Sequence record: OR594183
DNA from: Escherichia phage vB_EcoM_SHAK7858
Length of the DNA: 44,517 bases
Reading direction: 5' to 3' (one strand)
The translations under genes were made by a program, and so were the position numbers. Positions 27,041 through 36,599 of the stretch are shown here, piece by piece (position 1 is the first letter of the stretch; each line of letters starts with the position of its first letter). The notes below the pieces were generated by a model. It worked only from the letters and a program-made list of their open reading frames with translations, searched no databases and was not told where the DNA came from.

Positions 27041-27172
27041 TCATTCCAGCACCCACAGATAAATTGCTACTAACATACCCAATACGGCGACCATCATGCC
27101 GTATCGGCCCTCGTGACAGTAGACAACTGCGGCGAATCCCGCCAGTACCGCGATAATCAGTTTACTTAGCAT
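27041..27172 (-). CDS. Hypothetical small membrane protein (43 aa)
   Basis: Uninterrupted frame overlapping the 3' end of the polymerase gene; hydrophobic. Confidence 0.3.
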   Translation of the reverse strand: MLSKLIIAVLAGFAAVVYCHEGRYGMMVAVLGMLVAIYLWVLE

Positions 27173-29342
27173 AGCGCTTCATCTCCGCACCTTCCGCCAC
27201 AAGAGGGAACCCCTCCGCCCATTCCGGTAATTCACACATCAACCGCTCAAGCTCTGCAACATTGTATTCCGGTAAATCAGGTGTCTCGCAGATAATCTCA
27301 TCGTGTACATGAAGCACAATATGGTAGCCGTTTGCCTCTACGTTCAGCAGGGCGTTAGCCAGCAAATCACGGCACAGCGCCTGAGTACAGTTTTCCACCA
27401 GTTTACCAGAGTAGGTGTACTGGAAACCCCACTGCCTGGTTAACTGATTTTCACCCTGATACTTGATGCGCACGTTAGTAGAAACTTTTCCGTCTTCGTC
27501 TGTCTCTTTCGACACGCTCAACCCGACGCCCGGGTATGACATAACGCGACCTGACGGCAACGTCATGCGCAACCACCAACCAGCGACTTTGTTGCCGTTG
27601 TTGTCTGTTTCTACGTTGCGAGAAAACTTAACCCCGCGAGGGCCAGCGGTGAACTCTTTCCCCGGATTACGGATTGCTGCCATAGCTGCGTCTTCAATAT
27701 CACGCCAGAAAGCTACTGTTTCCGGGTGGGACTCCCGCCACATACGCTTAATTGCGTCGCATGTACGCCAGACTTTCTTATCAAGAATATATGATGGTCG
27801 GTCATCCTTTTCACCCGGACGCGGTGGTCGCTTGGCTTCCTGAATACGCGCCCACTCGTACCCGCGCGCGGTAGCGGCCCAGATGTGGTCAGGGAAAGTA
27901 CCGTCCATTGTTTTAGCCATATCAACCAGGTCAAGGCCGAGGTTTTTAGCGAACTGAACGAAAGCACCGACACCGCCCGCGTATCCGAGGCCCAATTCGC
28001 AGGCTTTACCAATCTGGCGTAAGTCTTTACGTTCTTTCTTAATGTAATCCGGCTCCATGCCGAACATCTTACCTGCTGTTACGCAGTAAATATCCAGTCC
28101 GGCGCGGAACGTATCTAGCGCGGTTTCTTCGCCCGCCAGCCACGCAAGACCGCGGCCTTCGACGTTAGAGTAATCGGCGATGACAAACTTATGTCCGGCT
28201 TCCGGGATAATGCAGCTACGAACGGTCGACGCCGTCAGCTTGGCTACGTCAAATCGGCGGTGCGCCCGGCCCTTAAGTAACGCTGAAATGCCTTTATCCA
28301 GTTCATCATCGTGATAGTACCCACGCGCCAGGTTCTGTGGCTGGAAGCCTTTACCCGCGAACCGTAACGTACGCTTTGCCCCACCGTACTGGATACAACC
28401 GCGGCGTCGGTCGTCCGACGAGCGGCCTAACAGCAGCGGGTTATATTTCGTGGACGCTGTTGACGCGGCCCCGAGGCGCATTTCGATAATCATCCGGGCG
28501 TCGTCCGGTAAATCATCATCTGCCAACAGGTCGTTAAGCGTCGACTTCTGTGCATTGTGTATGCGGTGCGCGGGCGCAAGTTCACGCAGAATCGGAAGGA
28601 AGTCTTTACCGGTAAGCGAGCCGCCGTATTTACGTTGAGCTTCTTCCTGTAACTGTGCCTTGTGCTTCTCTACGGCTTCAATCGCGGCTTCCGCCAGTGC
28701 GACGTCAACCTTAAATCCGCGGTCGTTGATTAACTGGTCAAGTTCCAGTACACGGTCTTCGAACTCGGAGTTACCCCAACGCGGCAGCTTATGGAAGACT
28801 TCACGCATCGCAGTGATGTCGCTCACGGCGTACCTGATGAACATCGCCCACTCGTCAGGGTGAGTTTCTGCGGTGTAGCGGCGGATTTTGTAGTTCTTCG
28901 GCGTCGGTTTAGAGAAACGCTTAATCAGAGCCTTGCCGCGTTTATCTTTCGCGTTGTCTGCAGACACGCCCAGCACTTCGCACAGCGCATCAAGAGAACC
29001 CGGCAGCGCGTGACGGAACGCCCAAATCATAGTATCAATGGTGTTACTTACCGGAATATCAAAGTCCCAGCAGTGTTTCATGATTAGGCGATCGAAAAGT
29101 CCACCGTTGTGCCACACCATCTTGATGCGGCTGTTGGGCTTAACAAGGCGGCGCAGTGCGCGGTGTAAATCCCCCGGCATGTCGCTGCCGTCGGTGCAAT
29201 CCCATACCCGCACAGGTTCGTCGTCAAAAGCATATGTACAGATAAGCACTTCGGTTGACGGGTGTTCGGCGTAAGCGTAAGAACCGACTTTCTTCAAATC
29301 GGCTTCTGAGAATGTTTCAAAGTCTAAGAACAGGTAACTCAT
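27162..29342 (-). CDS. Family A DNA polymerase with N-terminal 3'-5' exonuclease domain
   Basis: Exo I FLDFETFS; polymerase motif A DYSNVEGR, motif B K..ELGLGYAGG, motif C HVHDEI. Confidence 0.9.
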   Translation of the reverse strand: MSYLFLDFETFSEADLKKVGSYAYAEHPSTEVLICTYAFDDEPVRVWDCTDGSDMPGDLHRALRRLVKPNSRIKMVWHNGGLFDRLIMKHCWDFDIPVSNTIDTMIWAFRHALPGSLDALCEVLGVSADNAKDKRGKALIKRFSKPTPKNYKIRRYTAETHPDEWAMFIRYAVSDITAMREVFHKLPRWGNSEFEDRVLELDQLINDRGFKVDVALAEAAIEAVEKHKAQLQEEAQRKYGGSLTGKDFLPILRELAPAHRIHNAQKSTLNDLLADDDLPDDARMIIEMRLGAASTASTKYNPLLLGRSSDDRRRGCIQYGGAKRTLRFAGKGFQPQNLARGYYHDDELDKGISALLKGRAHRRFDVAKLTASTVRSCIIPEAGHKFVIADYSNVEGRGLAWLAGEETALDTFRAGLDIYCVTAGKMFGMEPDYIKKERKDLRQIGKACELGLGYAGGVGAFVQFAKNLGLDLVDMAKTMDGTFPDHIWAATARGYEWARIQEAKRPPRPGEKDDRPSYILDKKVWRTCDAIKRMWRESHPETVAFWRDIEDAAMAAIRNPGKEFTAGPRGVKFSRNVETDNNGNKVAGWWLRMTLPSGRVMSYPGVGLSVSKETDEDGKVSTNVRIKYQGENQLTRQWGFQYTYSGKLVENCTQALCRDLLANALLNVEANGYHIVLHVHDEIICETPDLPEYNVAELERLMCELPEWAEGFPLVAEGAEMKRYAK

Positions 29343-29357
29343 TATTTTTGACCCCTA

Positions 29358-29388
29358 GTAAAAAGGCCCAATGAAGGGCCTTAGTTAA
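29358..29388 (-). terminator. Hairpin plus T-run on the minus strand between the SSB-like and polymerase genes
   Basis: aggccc-aatgaa-gggcct with A-run upstream on the + strand. Confidence 0.45.
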
Positions 29389-29401
29389 ATTGATTCAGAT
29401 A

Positions 29402-30028
29402 TTAGCGGCGGCGACGTTCGCGGCGCGGTGCTTCGTCTTCTTCGTCGTCTTCCAGGTCATTGACGCTCGCAGCGACTTTAGAACCGCCGAACGCTTTGCC
29501 TTCGCCAACGTATTTAATCGCCAGCAGGTTAACGCCGAGGACTTTGTATTTCTGGCTGAACCAGATTTCAACGCTTACGTTAGCTAAGCATCCGCTGTAA
29601 ACCTGTTCACCTTCAATCTGTTCACCGTCTACATTGAAGTCCTGTTCTACCTGAGTCTCACCTTTTTTAGAGGTTACAATCAGCGGCTGCTTCTGTGCCT
29701 TCGCTTTGAAGTAGAAGCCTTCCGGGAAGTCTTCAAACGGATTGTCACGCTCGGCAATGTCTTTAATCGCACATTTATCCATGTGCTTACCTTCGCCGTA
29801 GTTGGACTTCATCCACTTCTCGGCGGCGGCTGCACCTAACGCTTCTTCAACTACAGCGTAAACGGTGTCGTAGAGCGCGTCGATTTGCGCGTGGTCGGAC
29901 GGCAGGATAATAGTCGCGCTGTACTGACCTTTAGTGATTGAACCATCATCATTTTCACGGTCTTTTTCGCGTTCGAATACGTTAACCCATGCAGTGTTTA
30001 CTTTACGCAGATTCAGTTTAATGCCCAT
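29402..30028 (-). CDS. SSB-like protein (DUF2815-like) with acidic C-terminal tail
   Basis: C-terminal DLEDDEEDE tail, position beside the polymerase and Cas4-like nuclease. Confidence 0.5.
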   Translation of the reverse strand: MGIKLNLRKVNTAWVNVFEREKDRENDDGSITKGQYSATIILPSDHAQIDALYDTVYAVVEEALGAAAAEKWMKSNYGEGKHMDKCAIKDIAERDNPFEDFPEGFYFKAKAQKQPLIVTSKKGETQVEQDFNVDGEQIEGEQVYSGCLANVSVEIWFSQKYKVLGVNLLAIKYVGEGKAFGGSKVAASVNDLEDDEEDEAPRRERRRR

Positions 30029-30082
30029 CGTGATTTCTCGCTTTTAAGTTTACTCCGGGAAGCTGCCCGGCCAGTGATTAGA

Positions 30083-30111
30083 ACTATAATAGCTAACTAT
30101 TCATGTGTCAA
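30083..30111 (-). promoter_or_regulatory. Sigma70-like promoter (TTGACA-N17-TATAGT) with embedded palindrome ATAATAG-N4-CTATTCA
   Basis: Read on the minus strand, upstream of the SSB-like gene; palindrome at 30086-30103. Confidence 0.45.
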
Positions 30112-30330
30112 ATAAAATTTTGCAATAGGGATTATGTTCTCGAAATTAAGCATATCGGCCGGTTCGAACTCATCTTCTACAGGGTCGTATCGCATCATGG
30201 TACCGTTCAAGAACGTGAACGATTCCGAGTGTAGATACCCATCCCAGCGCCATACCATCAAAAAATCTTTATCAGTCGGCATTTCATTTACTTGAATAAT
30301 TCTAAATCCTCCTCTGTAACCTGATTCCAC
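30097..30330 (-). CDS. Hypothetical protein (77 aa)
   Basis: ORF overlapping the Cas4-like nuclease gene end. Confidence 0.4.
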   Translation of the reverse strand: MESGYRGGFRIIQVNEMPTDKDFLMVWRWDGYLHSESFTFLNGTMMRYDPVEDEFEPADMLNFENIIPIAKFYLTHE

Positions 30331-31538
30331 TCAGGACGTTTGTCATCTGCCGTTGCGACACATGGTGCGCCTGGCTTACGTGTAATGAAGTCTTTCAGTC
30401 CATCTTCAGGCACAACTTTAACCGCTTCGGTTGGCGTCATGAGCACTTGCTTCATTAGCGCTATGCCATACTTGCCAGCCACTTTCTCCGCGTCTTTCCA
30501 CACGCGATTACCCTGACGACCTTCAACCAGCTTGTACCCAGGCACTTTCTTACCGGAATGCAAAGCGGCAGCCATAGCTTTCTCAACCTTATCGATGTGC
30601 TGGCGCAGCAACGGCAACTTCTCATACTCAGCTACGAGTTGTTCAGGCGTCAGTTCCAGCGCAAAGTCGTCCTCCAGTTCTTCCGCCAGTACAGAATTAA
30701 CCGTCTTTGTACGCGCGGCGCACTGTTCAGAGAACCGACACCACTGACAACCATCGACCGACGGCTTGAAGTCCGACGCTTTCAGGTTCTTCTTGCCACG
30801 GGAATAGGCATCTAACGCTAACAGCGCACGTTTCTGCGCGAACTTAGCGAACAGTTCCAGACCTTCAACCGAGATGTCCCACTCCGACGCGCCCCCGGCG
30901 TACGGCTGGAAGATGACCAGGCGCACTACTGAGATGTTATAGCGTCTCTTGAGTCGACGATAAACACCGAGAGCGTAAAGCATAAGCTGCTTGTTTTCTT
31001 TCGCTTCGACGCGATGCCGCCCTGTTTTCAGGTCGCCGATAATGAGCATGTGCTCGTCGGTGTTTGCCAGTTCCTGGACAGCAACGAGGTCAGCGGTTCC
31101 GAACGTCTCAACGCCTTCATACCCCGGATGCAATACCTCAGTAAGATTGACCCGCATTTCCAGCTTAGCGTAAGCCGCTACGTCGATAATCGCTTTGCAG
31201 TAGTCGGTGTACTTGCGCACCTGCTCAATCATGTCCGCCGTAATCAGTACAGCACCTTTCATCGGGCTGATTAGCGCCTTAATCTGGCCTTTACCCTCGT
31301 CCAGCACGTAAGCGCCAACTTCACGCTCTAACGGCAGTGCAGTTCCGCGGATATAGGCGTTGAGATGGACCTCCGCTATGGTGTGGCACGCTGTACCTGT
31401 AACGGCGGCTTTACCTGACGTGTTGGGAATATCTTTCTCACAGGCCAGCGATGCGGCGCAGCTTAGCCACTTTTTAGCCCCTGACGGCGACAGCAGGGCG
31501 TGCACATCGTTATTGCCGCCGCGTTCTTTTAAAATCAT
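30288..31538 (-). CDS. PD-(D/E)XK nuclease with Cys cluster (Cas4-like / DUF2800-like)
   Basis: GTADLV...IIGDLKTG nuclease core plus CQWCRFSEQC cluster. Start taken at the ATG with SD gggagg; ORF track extends to 31553. Confidence 0.7.
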   Translation of the reverse strand: MILKERGGNNDVHALLSPSGAKKWLSCAASLACEKDIPNTSGKAAVTGTACHTIAEVHLNAYIRGTALPLEREVGAYVLDEGKGQIKALISPMKGAVLITADMIEQVRKYTDYCKAIIDVAAYAKLEMRVNLTEVLHPGYEGVETFGTADLVAVQELANTDEHMLIIGDLKTGRHRVEAKENKQLMLYALGVYRRLKRRYNISVVRLVIFQPYAGGASEWDISVEGLELFAKFAQKRALLALDAYSRGKKNLKASDFKPSVDGCQWCRFSEQCAARTKTVNSVLAEELEDDFALELTPEQLVAEYEKLPLLRQHIDKVEKAMAAALHSGKKVPGYKLVEGRQGNRVWKDAEKVAGKYGIALMKQVLMTPTEAVKVVPEDGLKDFITRKPGAPCVATADDKRPEWNQVTEEDLELFK

Positions 31539-31807
31539 ACCCTGACCTCCCACTGGTCAATTAAATGTCGTGTCTTGTGGTCACAATGCATCGCCCAGCT
31601 ATACATCGACTCGAAGACATAAAAGTCAGGCTTGGCGAAAGTTGTGCGCTTAATCTGTGACACGTGACGGCCTATGTCTTTAGGCCGTGGTACTTTTCCT
31701 AAGTACGCCATCTCTTCCATCTGGTGCGCACCGGACGGAGCACGCAATAGCCATAGCGCCTCTGTGTTATCACGCCTGTCGACGGCTCGGTAGAGTTGGT
31801 AAATCAT
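31535..31807 (-). CDS. Hypothetical protein (90 aa)
   Basis: ORF translationally coupled (ATGA) to the nuclease gene. Confidence 0.45.
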   Translation of the reverse strand: MIYQLYRAVDRRDNTEALWLLRAPSGAHQMEEMAYLGKVPRPKDIGRHVSQIKRTTFAKPDFYVFESMYSWAMHCDHKTRHLIDQWEVRV

Positions 31808-31850
31808 AATTCCGACCCTCAGTTAAAGCGGCCCGAAGGCCGCGAGATAG

Positions 31851-32369
31851 TTATTCTTCTTCGAAATACTTGTTCTTGATTGCTGTCAGGCGTTCCAGGT
31901 ACTCAACCAGGTCTTCGTCTTTAATCGCGGCAATCTTCATCTTCTTACCTGTGAACTCTTCCAGCAGTTCATCAGAATCATCGCACGCGGCATCGCTAGG
32001 ACCTTCATTAATTGCATCGTCGATGGCCTGAATCTGGTCACGCAGAGACTTGTAATCGACTTCTTCTTTCTCTTCTTCCGGTTCTGGCGCAGGTTCCTCT
32101 ACTTTAGCTTTACGCGGCTTGCGTTTTGGCTTCTCTTCCTCCGCCGGTTTAGTGTCAACTACGTCTTCACCCTCGACCGGGATTTCTTTTGTTTCTTCTT
32201 TTACAACAGTAGGCGTGATTGTTGCAGTTTCTGCGACACCACTGTCGACGTCTTTACCATATGGCGCCGTGATAGCCTTCGGCAGTTCAGTACGGCGTGC
32301 ACTGTTCGCAGCAATCAGTTCATGCGCAACTACGAAACGTTCCAGTAATACTAAGAATTTCTCTAACAT
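31851..32369 (-). CDS. Hypothetical acidic protein (172 aa) with a basic KPKRKPRKAK patch
   Basis: Glu/Asp-rich ORF, second gene of the leftward operon. Confidence 0.5.
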   Translation of the reverse strand: MLEKFLVLLERFVVAHELIAANSARRTELPKAITAPYGKDVDSGVAETATITPTVVKEETKEIPVEGEDVVDTKPAEEEKPKRKPRKAKVEEPAPEPEEEKEEVDYKSLRDQIQAIDDAINEGPSDAACDDSDELLEEFTGKKMKIAAIKDEDLVEYLERLTAIKNKYFEEE

Positions 32370-32393
32370 TATTTATTCTCCTGTTTATTTGGG

Positions 32394-32621
32394 TTACTCG
32401 CCGTCGCCTTCTGTAAGGCTATCGTCTATTAATTCAAATTTACCGTTTGGGTGTTGAATAGCTTCTTGCCCGCAATGGTCGCAGACAACAAGTTTATCGA
32501 ACCCATCAAACTCGTCCCCGACTACGCAAGAAAGTACAAATTTATGTTTTGTGCACACTTCCTGCGATTCTCCGAAAATTGCTAGAAAACCTTTAGCTAT
32601 GGCTCCCGTTATTGTGTTCAT
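32394..32621 (-). CDS. Small zinc-ribbon-like protein (75 aa)
   Basis: Cys pairs CTKHK...C and CDHCG; first gene after the promoter at 32650-32678. Confidence 0.45.
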   Translation of the reverse strand: MNTITGAIAKGFLAIFGESQEVCTKHKFVLSCVVGDEFDGFDKLVVCDHCGQEAIQHPNGKFELIDDSLTEGDGE

Positions 32622-32649
32622 ATCCGCCCCTCTCGTTTGGTATGGGCTA

Positions 32650-32678
32650 ACTATAATAGCGAACTATTCACATGTCAA
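32650..32678 (-). promoter_or_regulatory. Leftward promoter (TTGACA-N17-TATAGT) with embedded palindrome ATAATAG-N4-CTATTCA
   Basis: Read on the minus strand; palindrome at 32653-32670; part of the divergent control region next to the HTH gene. Confidence 0.5.
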
Positions 32679-32696
32679 TGGGCTTTTCTAAAATAA

Positions 32697-32714
32697 TTAA
32701 TATGGTACTATTCA
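32697..32714 (+). promoter_or_regulatory. Second, degenerate palindrome copy (TTAATAT-N4-CTATTCA) overlapping a TACTAT -10 for the HTH gene
   Basis: Lies about 40 bp from the first site and about 30 bp upstream of the HTH start codon; SD aaggag follows. Confidence 0.4.
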
Positions 32715-32742
32715 CATATCAACTGACTAAGGAGTAATTGAC

Positions 32743-32958
32743 ATGCAACCATCTGAACTAGGTATCCGTGTAGAACAACGCCGTAAAGAACTCGGCATCT
32801 CCCAGCGCCGTTTGGCGGCCCTGACCGGCGTTTCCCAGGGCGCGATTAACCAACTGGCACTTGGAGTAACTCAGGACGTCCGCCCGGCAACGCTGTTCAA
32901 ACTGGCGGAAGTTCTGGAAGTAGACGCCAAGTGGCTGGCGTTAGGTGAAGGGGCTTAA
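32743..32958 (+). CDS. Cro/CI-type (XRE-family) helix-turn-helix DNA-binding protein
   Basis: Classic HTH LGISQRRLAALTGVSQGAINQL; strong SD; terminator downstream. Confidence 0.85.
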   Translation: MQPSELGIRVEQRRKELGISQRRLAALTGVSQGAINQLALGVTQDVRPATLFKLAEVLEVDAKWLALGEGA

Positions 32959-32975
32959 AGCCCCTTTCTTTTTAT
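32949..32975. terminator. Rho-independent terminator after the HTH gene
   Basis: aggggc-ttaa-gcccct followed by ttctttttat. Confidence 0.6.
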
Positions 32976-33286
32976 AGCAACTTATCGAGTTCTTCCAAAT
33001 TCTTAATAGTGTGTTGCACGTTCAGGTACTGAATCCAGGCGAGAAACCACGCACTTACAGGAAAACTTATAACAATAGTTATCGATATAATTAATTTGAA
33101 AAGGCACTTTATAATCTCTGCCAGCGTCATGTCTAAAATGTCTTTAAACTCCGCAAAAATCCCCGCTGCATACACACAAAAAGTCCACCAGTTGTTGCTT
33201 ACAGCGGAAACACATGTCAGGTATGACGGGCGGTATCCTGCCTTCACTGCTTTAAACGGGTTATCTATAAAATCGTAAATATTCAT
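32972..33286 (-). CDS. Hypothetical membrane protein (104 aa), AT-rich
   Basis: Hydrophobic helices; noticeably lower GC than flanking genes. Confidence 0.45.
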   Translation of the reverse strand: MNIYDFIDNPFKAVKAGYRPSYLTCVSAVSNNWWTFCVYAAGIFAEFKDILDMTLAEIIKCLFKLIISITIVISFPVSAWFLAWIQYLNVQHTIKNLEELDKLL

Positions 33287-36536: not shown

Positions 36537-36565
36537 TTGCACACCCCAACATAATAGGATACTAT
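36537..36565 (+). promoter_or_regulatory. Sigma70-like promoter (TTGCAC-N17-TACTAT) with embedded palindrome ATAATAG-N4-CTATTCA
   Basis: Palindrome at 36551-36568; about 35 nt upstream of the ATG at 36600. Confidence 0.45.
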
Positions 36566-36599
36566 TCACTTATCGAAACGAGACATAAGGAATTTAGAA

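What the first reader, a model, noticed from the sequence alone, without database searches (positions are those of the whole stretch)
31851..32621. First genes of the leftward operon: zinc-ribbon protein and acidic 172-aa protein
Directly downstream of the operator-controlled leftward promoter are a 75-aa Cys-pair protein and a 172-aa strongly acidic protein with a basic KPKRKPRKAK patch, followed by replication genes. Promoter-proximal position in the first-transcribed operon is where phages commonly place host shut-off and anti-defence genes. The acidic protein could be a DNA mimic or a replication accessory protein.
Basis: inference. Interest (0 to 1): 0.45.

Follow-up and report, generated by a model that had tools for sequence, protein, structure and literature searches.

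The report
Two uncharacterised early phage genes
Both genes are real but differ in kind: the 75-aa zinc-ribbon gene is a small mobile cassette swapped between unrelated E. coli phages, and the acidic 172-aa gene is a conserved, uncharacterised part of the phage DNA-replication module, not a restriction-blocking DNA mimic.

Summary
The window is a Kagunavirus (Guernseyvirinae) E. coli siphophage. Both ORFs sit at the stated coordinates behind a strong sigma-70-like leftward promoter with two repeated boxes, opposite an HTH_3 regulator gene.

No library (Pfam, NCBIfam, PDB, fold searches) gives a function. The two genes behave very differently.

**zn75 (accessory cassette)**
- It is a low-GC, 258-nt cassette in a hypervariable slot next to the promoter.
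- It is present in 56 phage records.
- About 92% identical copies lie in the early region of T7-like Kayfunavirus podophages. dN/dS is 0.06.

**acid172 (core gene)**
- It is found in about 485 phage records.
- It is always the first conserved gene of the HTH <-> acid172-(hyp90)-DUF2800 nuclease-gp2.5-like SSB-PolA module, down to about 31% identity.
- It has a near-invariant N-terminal helix, a disordered linker of acidic and basic patches, and an acidic three-helix bundle.
- A structurally conserved hairpin follows its stop codon.
- The linker resembles the phage SSB tail.

Published plating data show close relatives carrying both genes are restricted 10^-3 to 10^-6 by type I, II and III systems. 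That argues against Ocr-like anti-restriction.

Best reading: zn75 is a mobile early accessory gene, and acid172 is a non-enzymatic replisome or recombination adaptor. Both functions are inferred.

The parts
32394..32621 (-). zn75: 75-aa acidic (pI 4.46) CxxH...CxxC zinc-ribbon-like protein, PHROG 32657, function unknown
   Evidence: ORF. Invariant C23, H26, C32, C47 and C50. PHROG hit 7e-51. No Pfam, NCBIfam or PDB match. dN/dS 0.06 against the Kayfunavirus copy.
32377..32634 (-). About 258-nt mobile cassette (RBS + zn75 + downstream AAATAAACAGGAGA) shared with Kayfunavirus LM33_P1 gp4; flanks are unrelated
   Evidence: DNA alignment A3. GC 43% against 50.6% for the genome. Present in 56 phage records, roughly half Kagunavirus-size (42-45 kb) and half Kayfunavirus-size (39-40 kb) genomes.
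31851..32369 (-). acid172: 172 aa. N-terminal amphipathic helix (2-27), disordered acidic/basic linker (28-105, KPKRKPRKAK at 80-89), acidic three-helix bundle (106-170). PHROG 3127, named '13.88 kDa late protein' in some records
   Evidence: ORF. PHROG hit 7.5e-67. 2350 clusters. AF2 model with C-terminal domain pLDDT about 90. Alignment A2. Domain charges.
31828..31843 (-). GC hairpin GCGGCC-UUCG-GGCCGC followed by UUUAAC, directly after the acid172 stop codon: a weak terminator or attenuator, or an mRNA-stabilising stem
   Evidence: A hairpin is present in nearly all of about 70 relatives, with different stem sequences. 4 of 6 pairs show compensatory changes.
32650..32678 (-). Leftward sigma-70-type promoter P_L (TTGACA-17-TATAGT)
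   Evidence: 11 of 12 positions match. Conserved across Kagunavirus loci.
32654..32722 (.). Two 25-nt direct repeats (32654-32678 and 32698-32722) with core GTGAATAGT: candidate operators of the HTH regulator. Box 1 lies in the P_L spacer and on the -35 of the rightward promoter. Box 2 lies in the HTH leader.
   Evidence: The box sequence changes together with the HTH variant in the loci carrying a 48%-identical HTH (GTAATAGTAC / ATAATAGAGTAC).
32667..32694 (+). Candidate rightward promoter of the HTH gene (TTCACA-16-TAAAAT)
   Evidence: 10 of 12 positions match.
32743..32958 (+). 71-aa HTH_3 (Cro/CI-type) regulator, divergent from P_L, followed by an intrinsic terminator at 32947-32967
   Evidence: Pfam HTH_3 3.9e-13. 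Terminator.
27162..31807 (-). Downstream genes of the same unit: hyp90 (31535-31807), DUF2800 nuclease (30288-31553), hyp77 (30097-30330), internal promoter box (30096-30111), gp2.5/Enc34-type SSB (29402-30028), PolA (27162-29342)
   Evidence: Synteny in 72 loci.

Best explanation
The region holds two unrelated kinds of gene behind one host-RNA-polymerase promoter. That promoter is probably repressed by the divergent HTH protein through the two GTGAATAGT boxes. (1) zn75 is a horizontally mobile accessory cassette. It encodes a small acidic zinc-ribbon protein and is inserted in a promoter-proximal hot-spot. The same cassette sits in the host-RNAP-transcribed early region of T7-like Kayfunavirus phages. 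It most likely binds a host or defence protein early in infection (host take-over or counter-defence), but it does not act against the R-M systems tested. (2) acid172 is a conserved, non-enzymatic core component of the DUF2800 nuclease / gp2.5-like SSB-annealase / PolA module. An invariant N-terminal helix and an acidic three-helix bundle would act as two protein-binding ends. They are joined by a disordered linker whose acidic-run-plus-K/R-P-K/R-R patch copies the charge pattern of the phage SSB C-terminal tail. The protein would therefore dock on, or compete for, the partner that reads the SSB tail, or would capture the Arg-rich SSB tail with its acidic bundle. That would organise or regulate the replisome or recombination complex. 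The conserved hairpin after its stop codon would let it be made in excess over the downstream enzymes. Shown: gene reality, distribution, synteny, architecture, promoter and box sequences, hairpin conservation, and lack of R-M protection in relatives. Inferred: every binding partner and the mechanism.
For: Identity of the phage. zn75: narrow family of 7 clusters. Found in 56 phage records split between siphovirus Kagunavirus and podovirus Kayfunavirus. In LM33_P1 it lies between the 0.7-like kinase gene and the RNAP gene. The cassette has sharp boundaries. dN/dS is 0.06. GC is 43%. The slot is empty in about half of 72 loci and otherwise holds ORFans, HNH endonucleases, ParB-like or Nmad5 genes. 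Variant copies sit elsewhere in K1ind1, L027 and L034. acid172: present in about 485 phage records. The order HTH <-> acid172-(hyp90)-DUF2800-SSB-PolA is kept down to 31% identity. In the distant locus L072 a protein with the same N-terminal helix again precedes DUF2800 and the SSB. The N-helix is conserved at the protein level. Tripartite AF2 model. The hairpin is conserved in structure but not in sequence. Linker against SSB-tail similarity: mean z 2.4 over 64 pairs, up to 7.8. In Enc34/Chi-like phages the positional analogue ORF3 ends EEEEV/EEDDV, like its SSB tail DEDEV/EDEV. The duf2800-gp2.5-polA module is described in PMC8093625.
Confidence: 0.45

Rival explanations
1. acid172 is a host-directed inhibitor. 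Its acidic domain or linker acts as a decoy or DNA mimic for a host nuclease such as RecBCD. It would play the role of lambda Gam or T7 gp5.9, which are encoded next to the phage exonuclease and annealase genes.
For: It is strongly acidic. It is the first conserved gene upstream of the exonuclease and SSB/annealase genes in all relatives. That placement is analogous to lambda gam-bet-exo and T7 5.9-6 (own knowledge). The N-helix stays near-invariant while the phage replication proteins diverge to 30-50%, as expected for a conserved host target. Kagunaviruses show variable to complete sensitivity to P2 Old. In lambda, Old sensitivity depends on red/gam functions (own knowledge).
Against: No sequence or fold similarity to Gam, Abc2, gp5.9 or Ocr. 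Old sensitivity ranges from EOP about 1 to below 1e-8 among Bas70-76, although the phage search and the Bas70 and Bas76 records indicate the gene is shared by this group. I did not compare alleles. Most of the acidity lies in a disordered linker and a small bundle, not in an extended DNA-like surface.
Confidence: 0.22
2. acid172 is an Ocr/ArdA-like DNA mimic that blocks restriction-modification or other DNA-targeting defences.
For: Acidic composition and an early, promoter-proximal position.
Against: Bas70 carries both genes. Its 7-kb stretch around them matches the window at 93% nt identity over the 86% that aligns. It plates at about 1e-5 on EcoKI, 1e-4 to 1e-3 on EcoCFT_I, about 1e-5 on EcoRI, about 1e-6 on EcoRV and EcoCFT_II, and about 1e-5 on EcoPI. 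Bas71-76 are likewise restricted. No Pfam Ocr or ArdA hit. It is a conserved core gene rather than a variable one.
Confidence: 0.03
3. acid172 and/or zn75 are transcription factors that redirect host RNA polymerase (a temporal switch or host shut-off), not DNA-metabolism or anti-defence proteins.
For: These phages encode no RNA polymerase that I found among the genes examined. Both genes are first behind a sigma-70 promoter. acid172 is separated from downstream genes by a hairpin. zn75 is a zinc-ribbon-like protein, a fold common in nucleic-acid and RNAP binders (own knowledge). In Kayfunavirus it sits next to the 0.7-like kinase gene, which in T7 is a host shut-off gene (own knowledge).
Against: acid172 stays linked to DUF2800 and the SSB even in L072, where the rest of the module is rearranged. 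zn75 is dispensable, being absent from about half of Kagunaviruses, so it cannot be the essential temporal switch. No similarity to AsiA, Gp2, p7 and the like was found.
Confidence: 0.12
4. zn75 has no selected function in this phage and is merely hitch-hiking DNA.
For: Sporadic distribution and low GC. No phenotype correlates with its presence among Bas70-76 for R-M, RexAB, PifA, Fun/Z or Old.
Against: dS 0.58 with dN 0.035 between copies in two unrelated phage lineages. 34 invariant positions, including all metal ligands. It is retained with its own RBS in at least three genomic contexts.
Confidence: 0.08

Closest known systems
duf2800-gp2.5-polA replication/recombination module (Enc34 ORF3-ORF7; PMC5686142, PMC8093625)
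   Same: Same gene order: divergent regulator, small first gene, second small gene, DUF2800 nuclease, Enc34/gp2.5-type SSB, PolA. Enc34 ORF3 has the same layout as acid172: an N-terminal helix containing E-x-I-A-A-N, a K-rich linker and an acidic helical C-terminus.
   Different: No significant sequence or profile similarity between acid172 and ORF3. ORF3 is also uncharacterised. UniRef's name 'RecT protein' for it has no Pfam support.
Salmonella phage MB78 '13.88 kDa late protein' (UniProt Q9T1Z8)
   Same: True homologue: 70% identity and top BFVD hit. It is the source of the name carried by many records.
   Different: It is annotated as 123 aa, shorter than the 150-175 aa family. No function is attached. 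I could not check it because the MB78 papers are not in the library.
T7 gp2.5 and gp4 acidic C-terminal tails as replisome docking motifs
   Same: The works-like analogy: a short charged tail motif shared by several replisome proteins that bind the same partner (own knowledge). Here the acid172 linker and the SSB tail share a charge pattern, and Enc34 ORF3 and its SSB share an acidic-aliphatic end.
   Different: In Guernseyvirinae the SSB tail ends in an Arg-rich stretch, not an acidic-aromatic end. No interaction has been shown.
Lambda Gam, T7 gp5.9, P22 Abc (RecBCD inhibitors beside exonuclease/annealase genes)
   Same: A small acidic protein encoded directly upstream of the phage exonuclease and annealing-protein genes.
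   Different: No sequence or fold similarity. No functional test.
T7 Ocr (gp0.3) and other class I early accessory proteins of T7-like phages
   Same: In Kayfunavirus, zn75 sits in the same host-RNAP-transcribed early block. One assembly even holds an Ocr::zn75 C-terminal chimera.
   Different: zn75 is a Cys/His metal-binding protein, not an Ocr fold. Carriers Bas70, Bas73 and Bas75 are as R-M sensitive as non-carriers.

Membership tests
Ocr/ArdA-type anti-restriction DNA mimics | Sequence or fold membership (Pfam Ocr PF08684 / ArdA) | tested here: not met
Ocr/ArdA-type anti-restriction DNA mimics | Protects the phage from type I (and often other) R-M systems | tested here: not met
   Published EOPs of close relatives carrying the genes: Bas70 about 1e-5 on EcoKI and 1e-4 to 1e-3 on EcoCFT_I. 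Bas71-76 are similarly restricted (PMC11990801 S1 Data).
Zinc ribbon (zn75) | Two metal-binding knuckles (CxxC/CxxH), invariant in the family | tested here: met
   C23-x2-H26 and C47-x2-C50 are invariant in 7 clusters and kept in the Kayfunavirus copy.
Zinc ribbon (zn75) | Beta-hairpin/three-stranded sheet fold carrying the knuckles | tested here: inconclusive
   AF2 places strands at 28-30, 43-47, 53-56 and 62-64 next to the knuckles, but mean pLDDT is 54. Foldseek against PDB gives no match below E = 0.99.
Zinc ribbon (zn75) | Binds zinc | not testable with these tools
   Needs metal analysis of purified protein.
Accessory ('moron'-like) mobile gene cassette (zn75) | Variable presence among close relatives, own translation signals, atypical composition, occurrence in unrelated genomes | tested here: met
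   Present in 5 of about 70 IMG/VR loci at this slot and in 56 phage records across two unrelated genera. The cassette includes an RBS and has sharp boundaries. GC 43% against 50.6%.
duf2800-gp2.5-polA replication module (acid172 as a component) | Conserved co-occurrence and order with the DUF2800 nuclease, Enc34/gp2.5-type SSB and PolA | tested here: met
   72 loci down to 31% identity, plus L072 with only the N-helix conserved. Pfam assignments of the neighbours.
duf2800-gp2.5-polA replication module (acid172 as a component) | Physical or functional interaction with module proteins | not testable with these tools
   No multimer prediction or experiment was available. There is only an indirect motif resemblance to the SSB tail.
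RecBCD inhibitors (Gam / gp5.9 / Abc2) | Homology or fold similarity to a known inhibitor | tested here: not met
RecT/Redbeta annealases (name UniRef gives the Enc34 positional analogue) | RecT (PF03837) domain | tested here: not met
Cro/CI-type divergent promoter-operator switch | HTH_3 regulator gene divergent from a promoter that overlaps repeated operator-like sites | tested here: met
   HTH_3 3.9e-13. Promoters. 25-nt repeats. Boxes co-vary with the HTH variant.
Cro/CI-type divergent promoter-operator switch | The regulator binds the boxes and represses P_L | not testable with these tools
   Needs EMSA or footprinting and transcription start site mapping.

The most novel reading that the evidence does not exclude
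acid172 defines an unrecognised class of replisome or recombination adaptor for gp2.5-type phage modules. It would carry a copy of the SSB tail motif and a near-invariant helix that docks on a conserved host or phage protein, with an independent analogue in Chi/Enc34-like phages. Separately, zn75 would be a cross-family mobile zinc-ribbon effector that disables a host function or defence system of extraintestinal E. coli.
Probability: 0.2. Interest if true: 0.6.

Novelty: new member of a known kind. Interest (0 to 1): 0.3.

Why it matters
Kagunavirus and Jerseyvirus phages are common therapy and biocontrol candidates with small, engineerable genomes. The duf2800-gp2.5-polA module is widespread in phages of Gram-negative and Gram-positive bacteria. 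Its first gene has never been characterised, so a defined role for acid172 would fill a gap in how these replisomes are organised.

zn75 is a compact candidate for screens of host take-over or counter-defence proteins. It is strongly conserved in both a siphovirus and a T7-like podovirus lineage of E. coli phages. Several carriers are recorded on K1, UPEC or ExPEC hosts.

The practical result here is negative: neither gene explains resistance to R-M, because carriers are R-M sensitive.

Tried and rejected
**Library and structure searches that found nothing**
- Pfam, NCBIfam and PDB-sequence searches of both proteins gave nothing.
- An exhaustive HMMER search of 1.84 billion representatives with acid172 found 28 hits, all the same family, with no fusion to a known domain.
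- BFVD gave only uncharacterised homologues.
- The zn75 AF2 model was too poor, and its PDB Foldseek search had no hit below E = 0.99.

**Hypotheses tested and not supported**
- Remote homology between acid172 and Enc34 ORF3 is not significant, with or without an ORF3-family profile.
- An origin or iterons inside the acid172 linker-coding DNA (a lambda-O-like arrangement): only codon-level low-complexity repeats, and no skew feature.
- A zn75 paralogue elsewhere in the window: none.
- Correlation of zn75 presence (Bas70, Bas73, Bas75) with any BASEL defence phenotype: none.

**Literature that did not settle timing**
- The K1B4 transcriptome paper does not give the temporal class of the acid172 homologue.
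- The MB78 papers are not in the library.

Full report
**What the window is.** A 7-kb stretch around the finding matches Escherichia phages of the genus Kagunavirus (Guernseyvirinae). Identity is 91-94% over more than 80% of its length, for example to KMB35 and to BASEL phages Bas70-76. The Bas70 annotation of the homologous stretch reads, leftward: hypothetical, hypothetical, hypothetical, exonuclease, hypothetical, Gp2.5-like ssDNA-binding/annealing protein, DNA polymerase. A divergent 'transcriptional regulator' and a replicative helicase-primase lie on the other side.

**Observation.**
- Both ORFs exist at exactly the stated coordinates, each with a good Shine-Dalgarno sequence.
- The 75-aa protein (zn75) has invariant C23-x2-H26, C32 and C47-x2-C50.
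- The 172-aa protein (acid172) is 19.4 kDa with pI 4.54. It has 45 acidic against 26 basic residues, and KPKRKPRKAK at residues 80-89.
- The intergenic region carries a minus-strand TTGACA-17-TATAGT promoter at 32678..32650, matching 11 of 12 positions.
- It also carries a 25-nt direct repeat at 32654-32678 and 32698-32722.
- A plus-strand TTCACA-16-TAAAAT promoter faces the HTH_3 gene at 32743..32958.

**Regulatory region.**
- The box core GTGAATAGT recurs on the minus strand at 30096-30111, upstream of the SSB gene. It recurs again at 36561-36576, at the head of the leftward cluster. That makes four matches against 0.57 expected by chance.
- The leftward replication cluster therefore has at least three similar promoters. 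The finding's two genes are first behind an internal one, not necessarily the first transcribed.
- Across Kagunavirus loci both boxes are nearly invariant. In the loci whose HTH protein is only 48% identical to the window's, both boxes change together to GTAATAGTAC and ATAATAGAGTAC. This fits operators read by the HTH protein, but it is not proof.
- The one Kagunavirus transcriptome (PMC12645636) names four early genes. The only one it identifies is an excisionase-like HTH gene. It classes the HTH_3 gene as middle and does not state the class of the acid172 homologue.

**zn75.**
- The family is tiny, with 7 clusters at 90% identity. It has no Pfam, NCBIfam or PDB relative and belongs to PHROG 32657, function unknown.
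- In the phage collection it occurs in 56 records. These split roughly evenly between 42-45-kb Kagunavirus siphophages and 39-40-kb Kayfunavirus (T7-like) podophages, at about 92% amino-acid identity.
- In LM33_P1 it is gp4, lying between the 0.7-like kinase gene and the RNA polymerase gene. That is the class I early block.
- The two contexts share about 258 nt, from the RBS to AAATAAACAGGAGA after the stop codon, with unrelated flanks.
- dS is 0.58 and dN is 0.035, giving dN/dS 0.06. GC is 43% against 50.6% for the genome.
- In 72 related loci the space between the promoter region and acid172 is empty in about half. Otherwise it holds zn75, other ORFans of 37-86 aa, HNH endonucleases, a ParB-like protein or an Nmad5 protein. 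Variant copies sit elsewhere in K1ind1, L027 and L034.
- One assembly holds an Ocr::zn75 chimera.
- zn75 is therefore a mobile accessory gene in a hypervariable early slot.
- Its structure model is poor (pLDDT 54) and gave no fold match.

**acid172.**
- It belongs to PHROG 3127, function unknown. It has 2350 clusters at 90% identity, but only 28 representatives at 50% identity in an exhaustive search, with none fused to a known domain.
- It occurs in about 485 phage records, mainly Salmonella and Escherichia phages of Guernseyvirinae type.
- In all 72 IMG/VR loci the order is HTH <-> [variable slot] acid172-(hyp90)-DUF2800 nuclease-SSB-PolA. This holds down to 31% identity, where the helicase-primase is only about 30% identical and inverted.
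- In the distant high-GC locus L072, a 294-aa protein shares only the N-terminal helix. It again sits directly upstream of a DUF2800 nuclease and an Enc34-type SSB.
- The family is tripartite:
  - a near-invariant helix, MLxKFLxLLERFVVAHELIAANS;
  - a variable linker with acidic runs and K/R-P-K/R-R or RGR-type basic patches;
  - a conserved acidic C-terminal domain.
- AF2 gives a helix at 2-27, disorder at 28-105 and a three-helix bundle at 106-170 with pLDDT about 90.
- Invariant helix residues use several synonymous codons, so the constraint acts on the protein, not the DNA.

**New features around acid172.**
- A GC hairpin follows its stop codon (31828-31843, then UUUAAC). Nearly all relatives have a hairpin there, with different stem sequences, and 4 of 6 pairs show compensatory changes. 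This suggests partial termination or transcript stabilisation, and so higher expression of acid172 than of the downstream enzymes. That step is inference.
- The phage SSB tails in this lineage are unusual: an acidic run followed by an Arg-rich end, such as EDDEEDEAPRRERRRR. Distant relatives have KPKRRPSRDEDDEEEERPRKKRRNYEDDEE.
- The acid172 linker shows the same pattern. Local alignments exceed composition shuffles with mean z 2.4 over 64 pairs, up to 7.8.
- In Enc34/Chi-like phages the same module begins with ORF3, which has the same three-part layout. Its C-terminus (EEEEV, EEDDV, DEDEV) resembles its own SSB tail (DEDEV, EDEV, DDDEV).
- Homology between the two families is not detectable, so this is analogy. 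The resemblances involve low-complexity sequence and are only suggestive.

**Against the DNA-mimic anti-restriction reading.**
- The BASEL paper reports that all Kagunavirus isolates are highly sensitive to R-M systems.
- The raw data show Bas70, which carries both genes, at EOP about 1e-5 on EcoKI and 1e-4 to 1e-3 on EcoCFT_I. It is at about 1e-5 on EcoRI, about 1e-6 on EcoRV and EcoCFT_II, and about 1e-5 on EcoPI.
- Bas71-76 behave similarly whether or not they carry zn75.
- RexAB, PifA and Fun/Z do not affect them.
- Old sensitivity varies from EOP about 1 to below 1e-8, with no relation to zn75. That sensitivity keeps a RecBCD-related function somewhere in these genomes conceivable (own knowledge of lambda Spi). 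This is why the Gam-like rival for acid172 is retained at moderate probability.

**Conclusion.** The finding is real and its two genes should be separated. zn75 is a mobile early accessory cassette with a plausible but untested host take-over or counter-defence role, and it does not act against R-M. acid172 is a conserved, non-enzymatic component of a known replication-recombination module. It is most likely an adaptor or regulator that shares the SSB tail motif. Both belong to catalogued families of unknown function, so novelty and interest are modest. The leads are concrete and cheap to test.

Noticed in passing
window 30096-30111, 32663-32678, 32707-32722, 36561-36576 (all minus strand): A shared extended promoter/box motif, TTGAYAnnTGAATAGT...TATTATAG, sits upstream of three leftward gene blocks. 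This suggests one regulon for the whole replication cluster, possibly under the 71-aa HTH protein.
   Followed up: partly
window 31828-31843 (minus strand): A hairpin directly after the acid172 stop codon is conserved in structure but not in sequence across distant relatives. It is followed by only 3-4 U, so it is probably a leaky terminator or a stabiliser.
   Followed up: partly
window 32972-33286 (minus strand): A 104-aa predicted membrane protein gene (PHROG 2638, GC 38.7%) lies between the HTH gene and the helicase-primase gene. It is present in only a minority of relatives and absent in Bas70, so this is a second variable slot.
   Followed up: partly
window 29402-30028 (minus strand), C-terminus: The gp2.5/Enc34-type SSB ends with an acidic run followed by PRRERRRR. 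Distant relatives have longer alternating acidic and Arg-rich tails. This is unusual for SSB tails, which are normally purely acidic.
   Followed up: partly
protein P0127 (E. coli assembly contig, 1867 nt): A 129-aa chimera joins an Ocr (PF08684) domain to the last 24 residues of zn75. This implies recombination between ocr and zn75 in some T7-like phage, or an assembly artefact.
   Followed up: no
L075 3681-4055 (Enc34 ORF3) and homologues P0156-P0275: UniRef names this 124-aa family 'RecT protein', yet none of the 24 members tested hits the RecT Pfam model. The name looks unfounded.
   Followed up: yes
L023, L053, L054, L059 (slot between the HTH gene and acid172): The same promoter-proximal slot holds HNH homing endonucleases, a ParB-like protein or an Nmad5 (nucleotide-modification-associated) protein in other relatives.
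   Followed up: partly
L072 6001-6885: A 294-aa protein from a distant high-GC phage shares only the acid172 N-terminal helix. It carries an 'RPWDKRIH' motif in a different C-terminal part, and its neighbouring SSB has a long Q/P-rich tail.
   Followed up: no
phage records MZ234009-MZ234011 (names vB_EcoP-22664BS1, vB_EcoS-22664BS2, vB_EcoP-22664UKE3-2): A Kagunavirus and two Kayfunavirus phages that all carry zn75 share the strain label 22664 in their names. This suggests isolation on the same host, which would give an opportunity for the cassette exchange.
   Followed up: no
window 30097-30330 (minus strand): The 77-aa ORF between the DUF2800 nuclease gene and the SSB gene is present in only a few relatives. 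This is another variable insertion inside the replication module.
   Followed up: no
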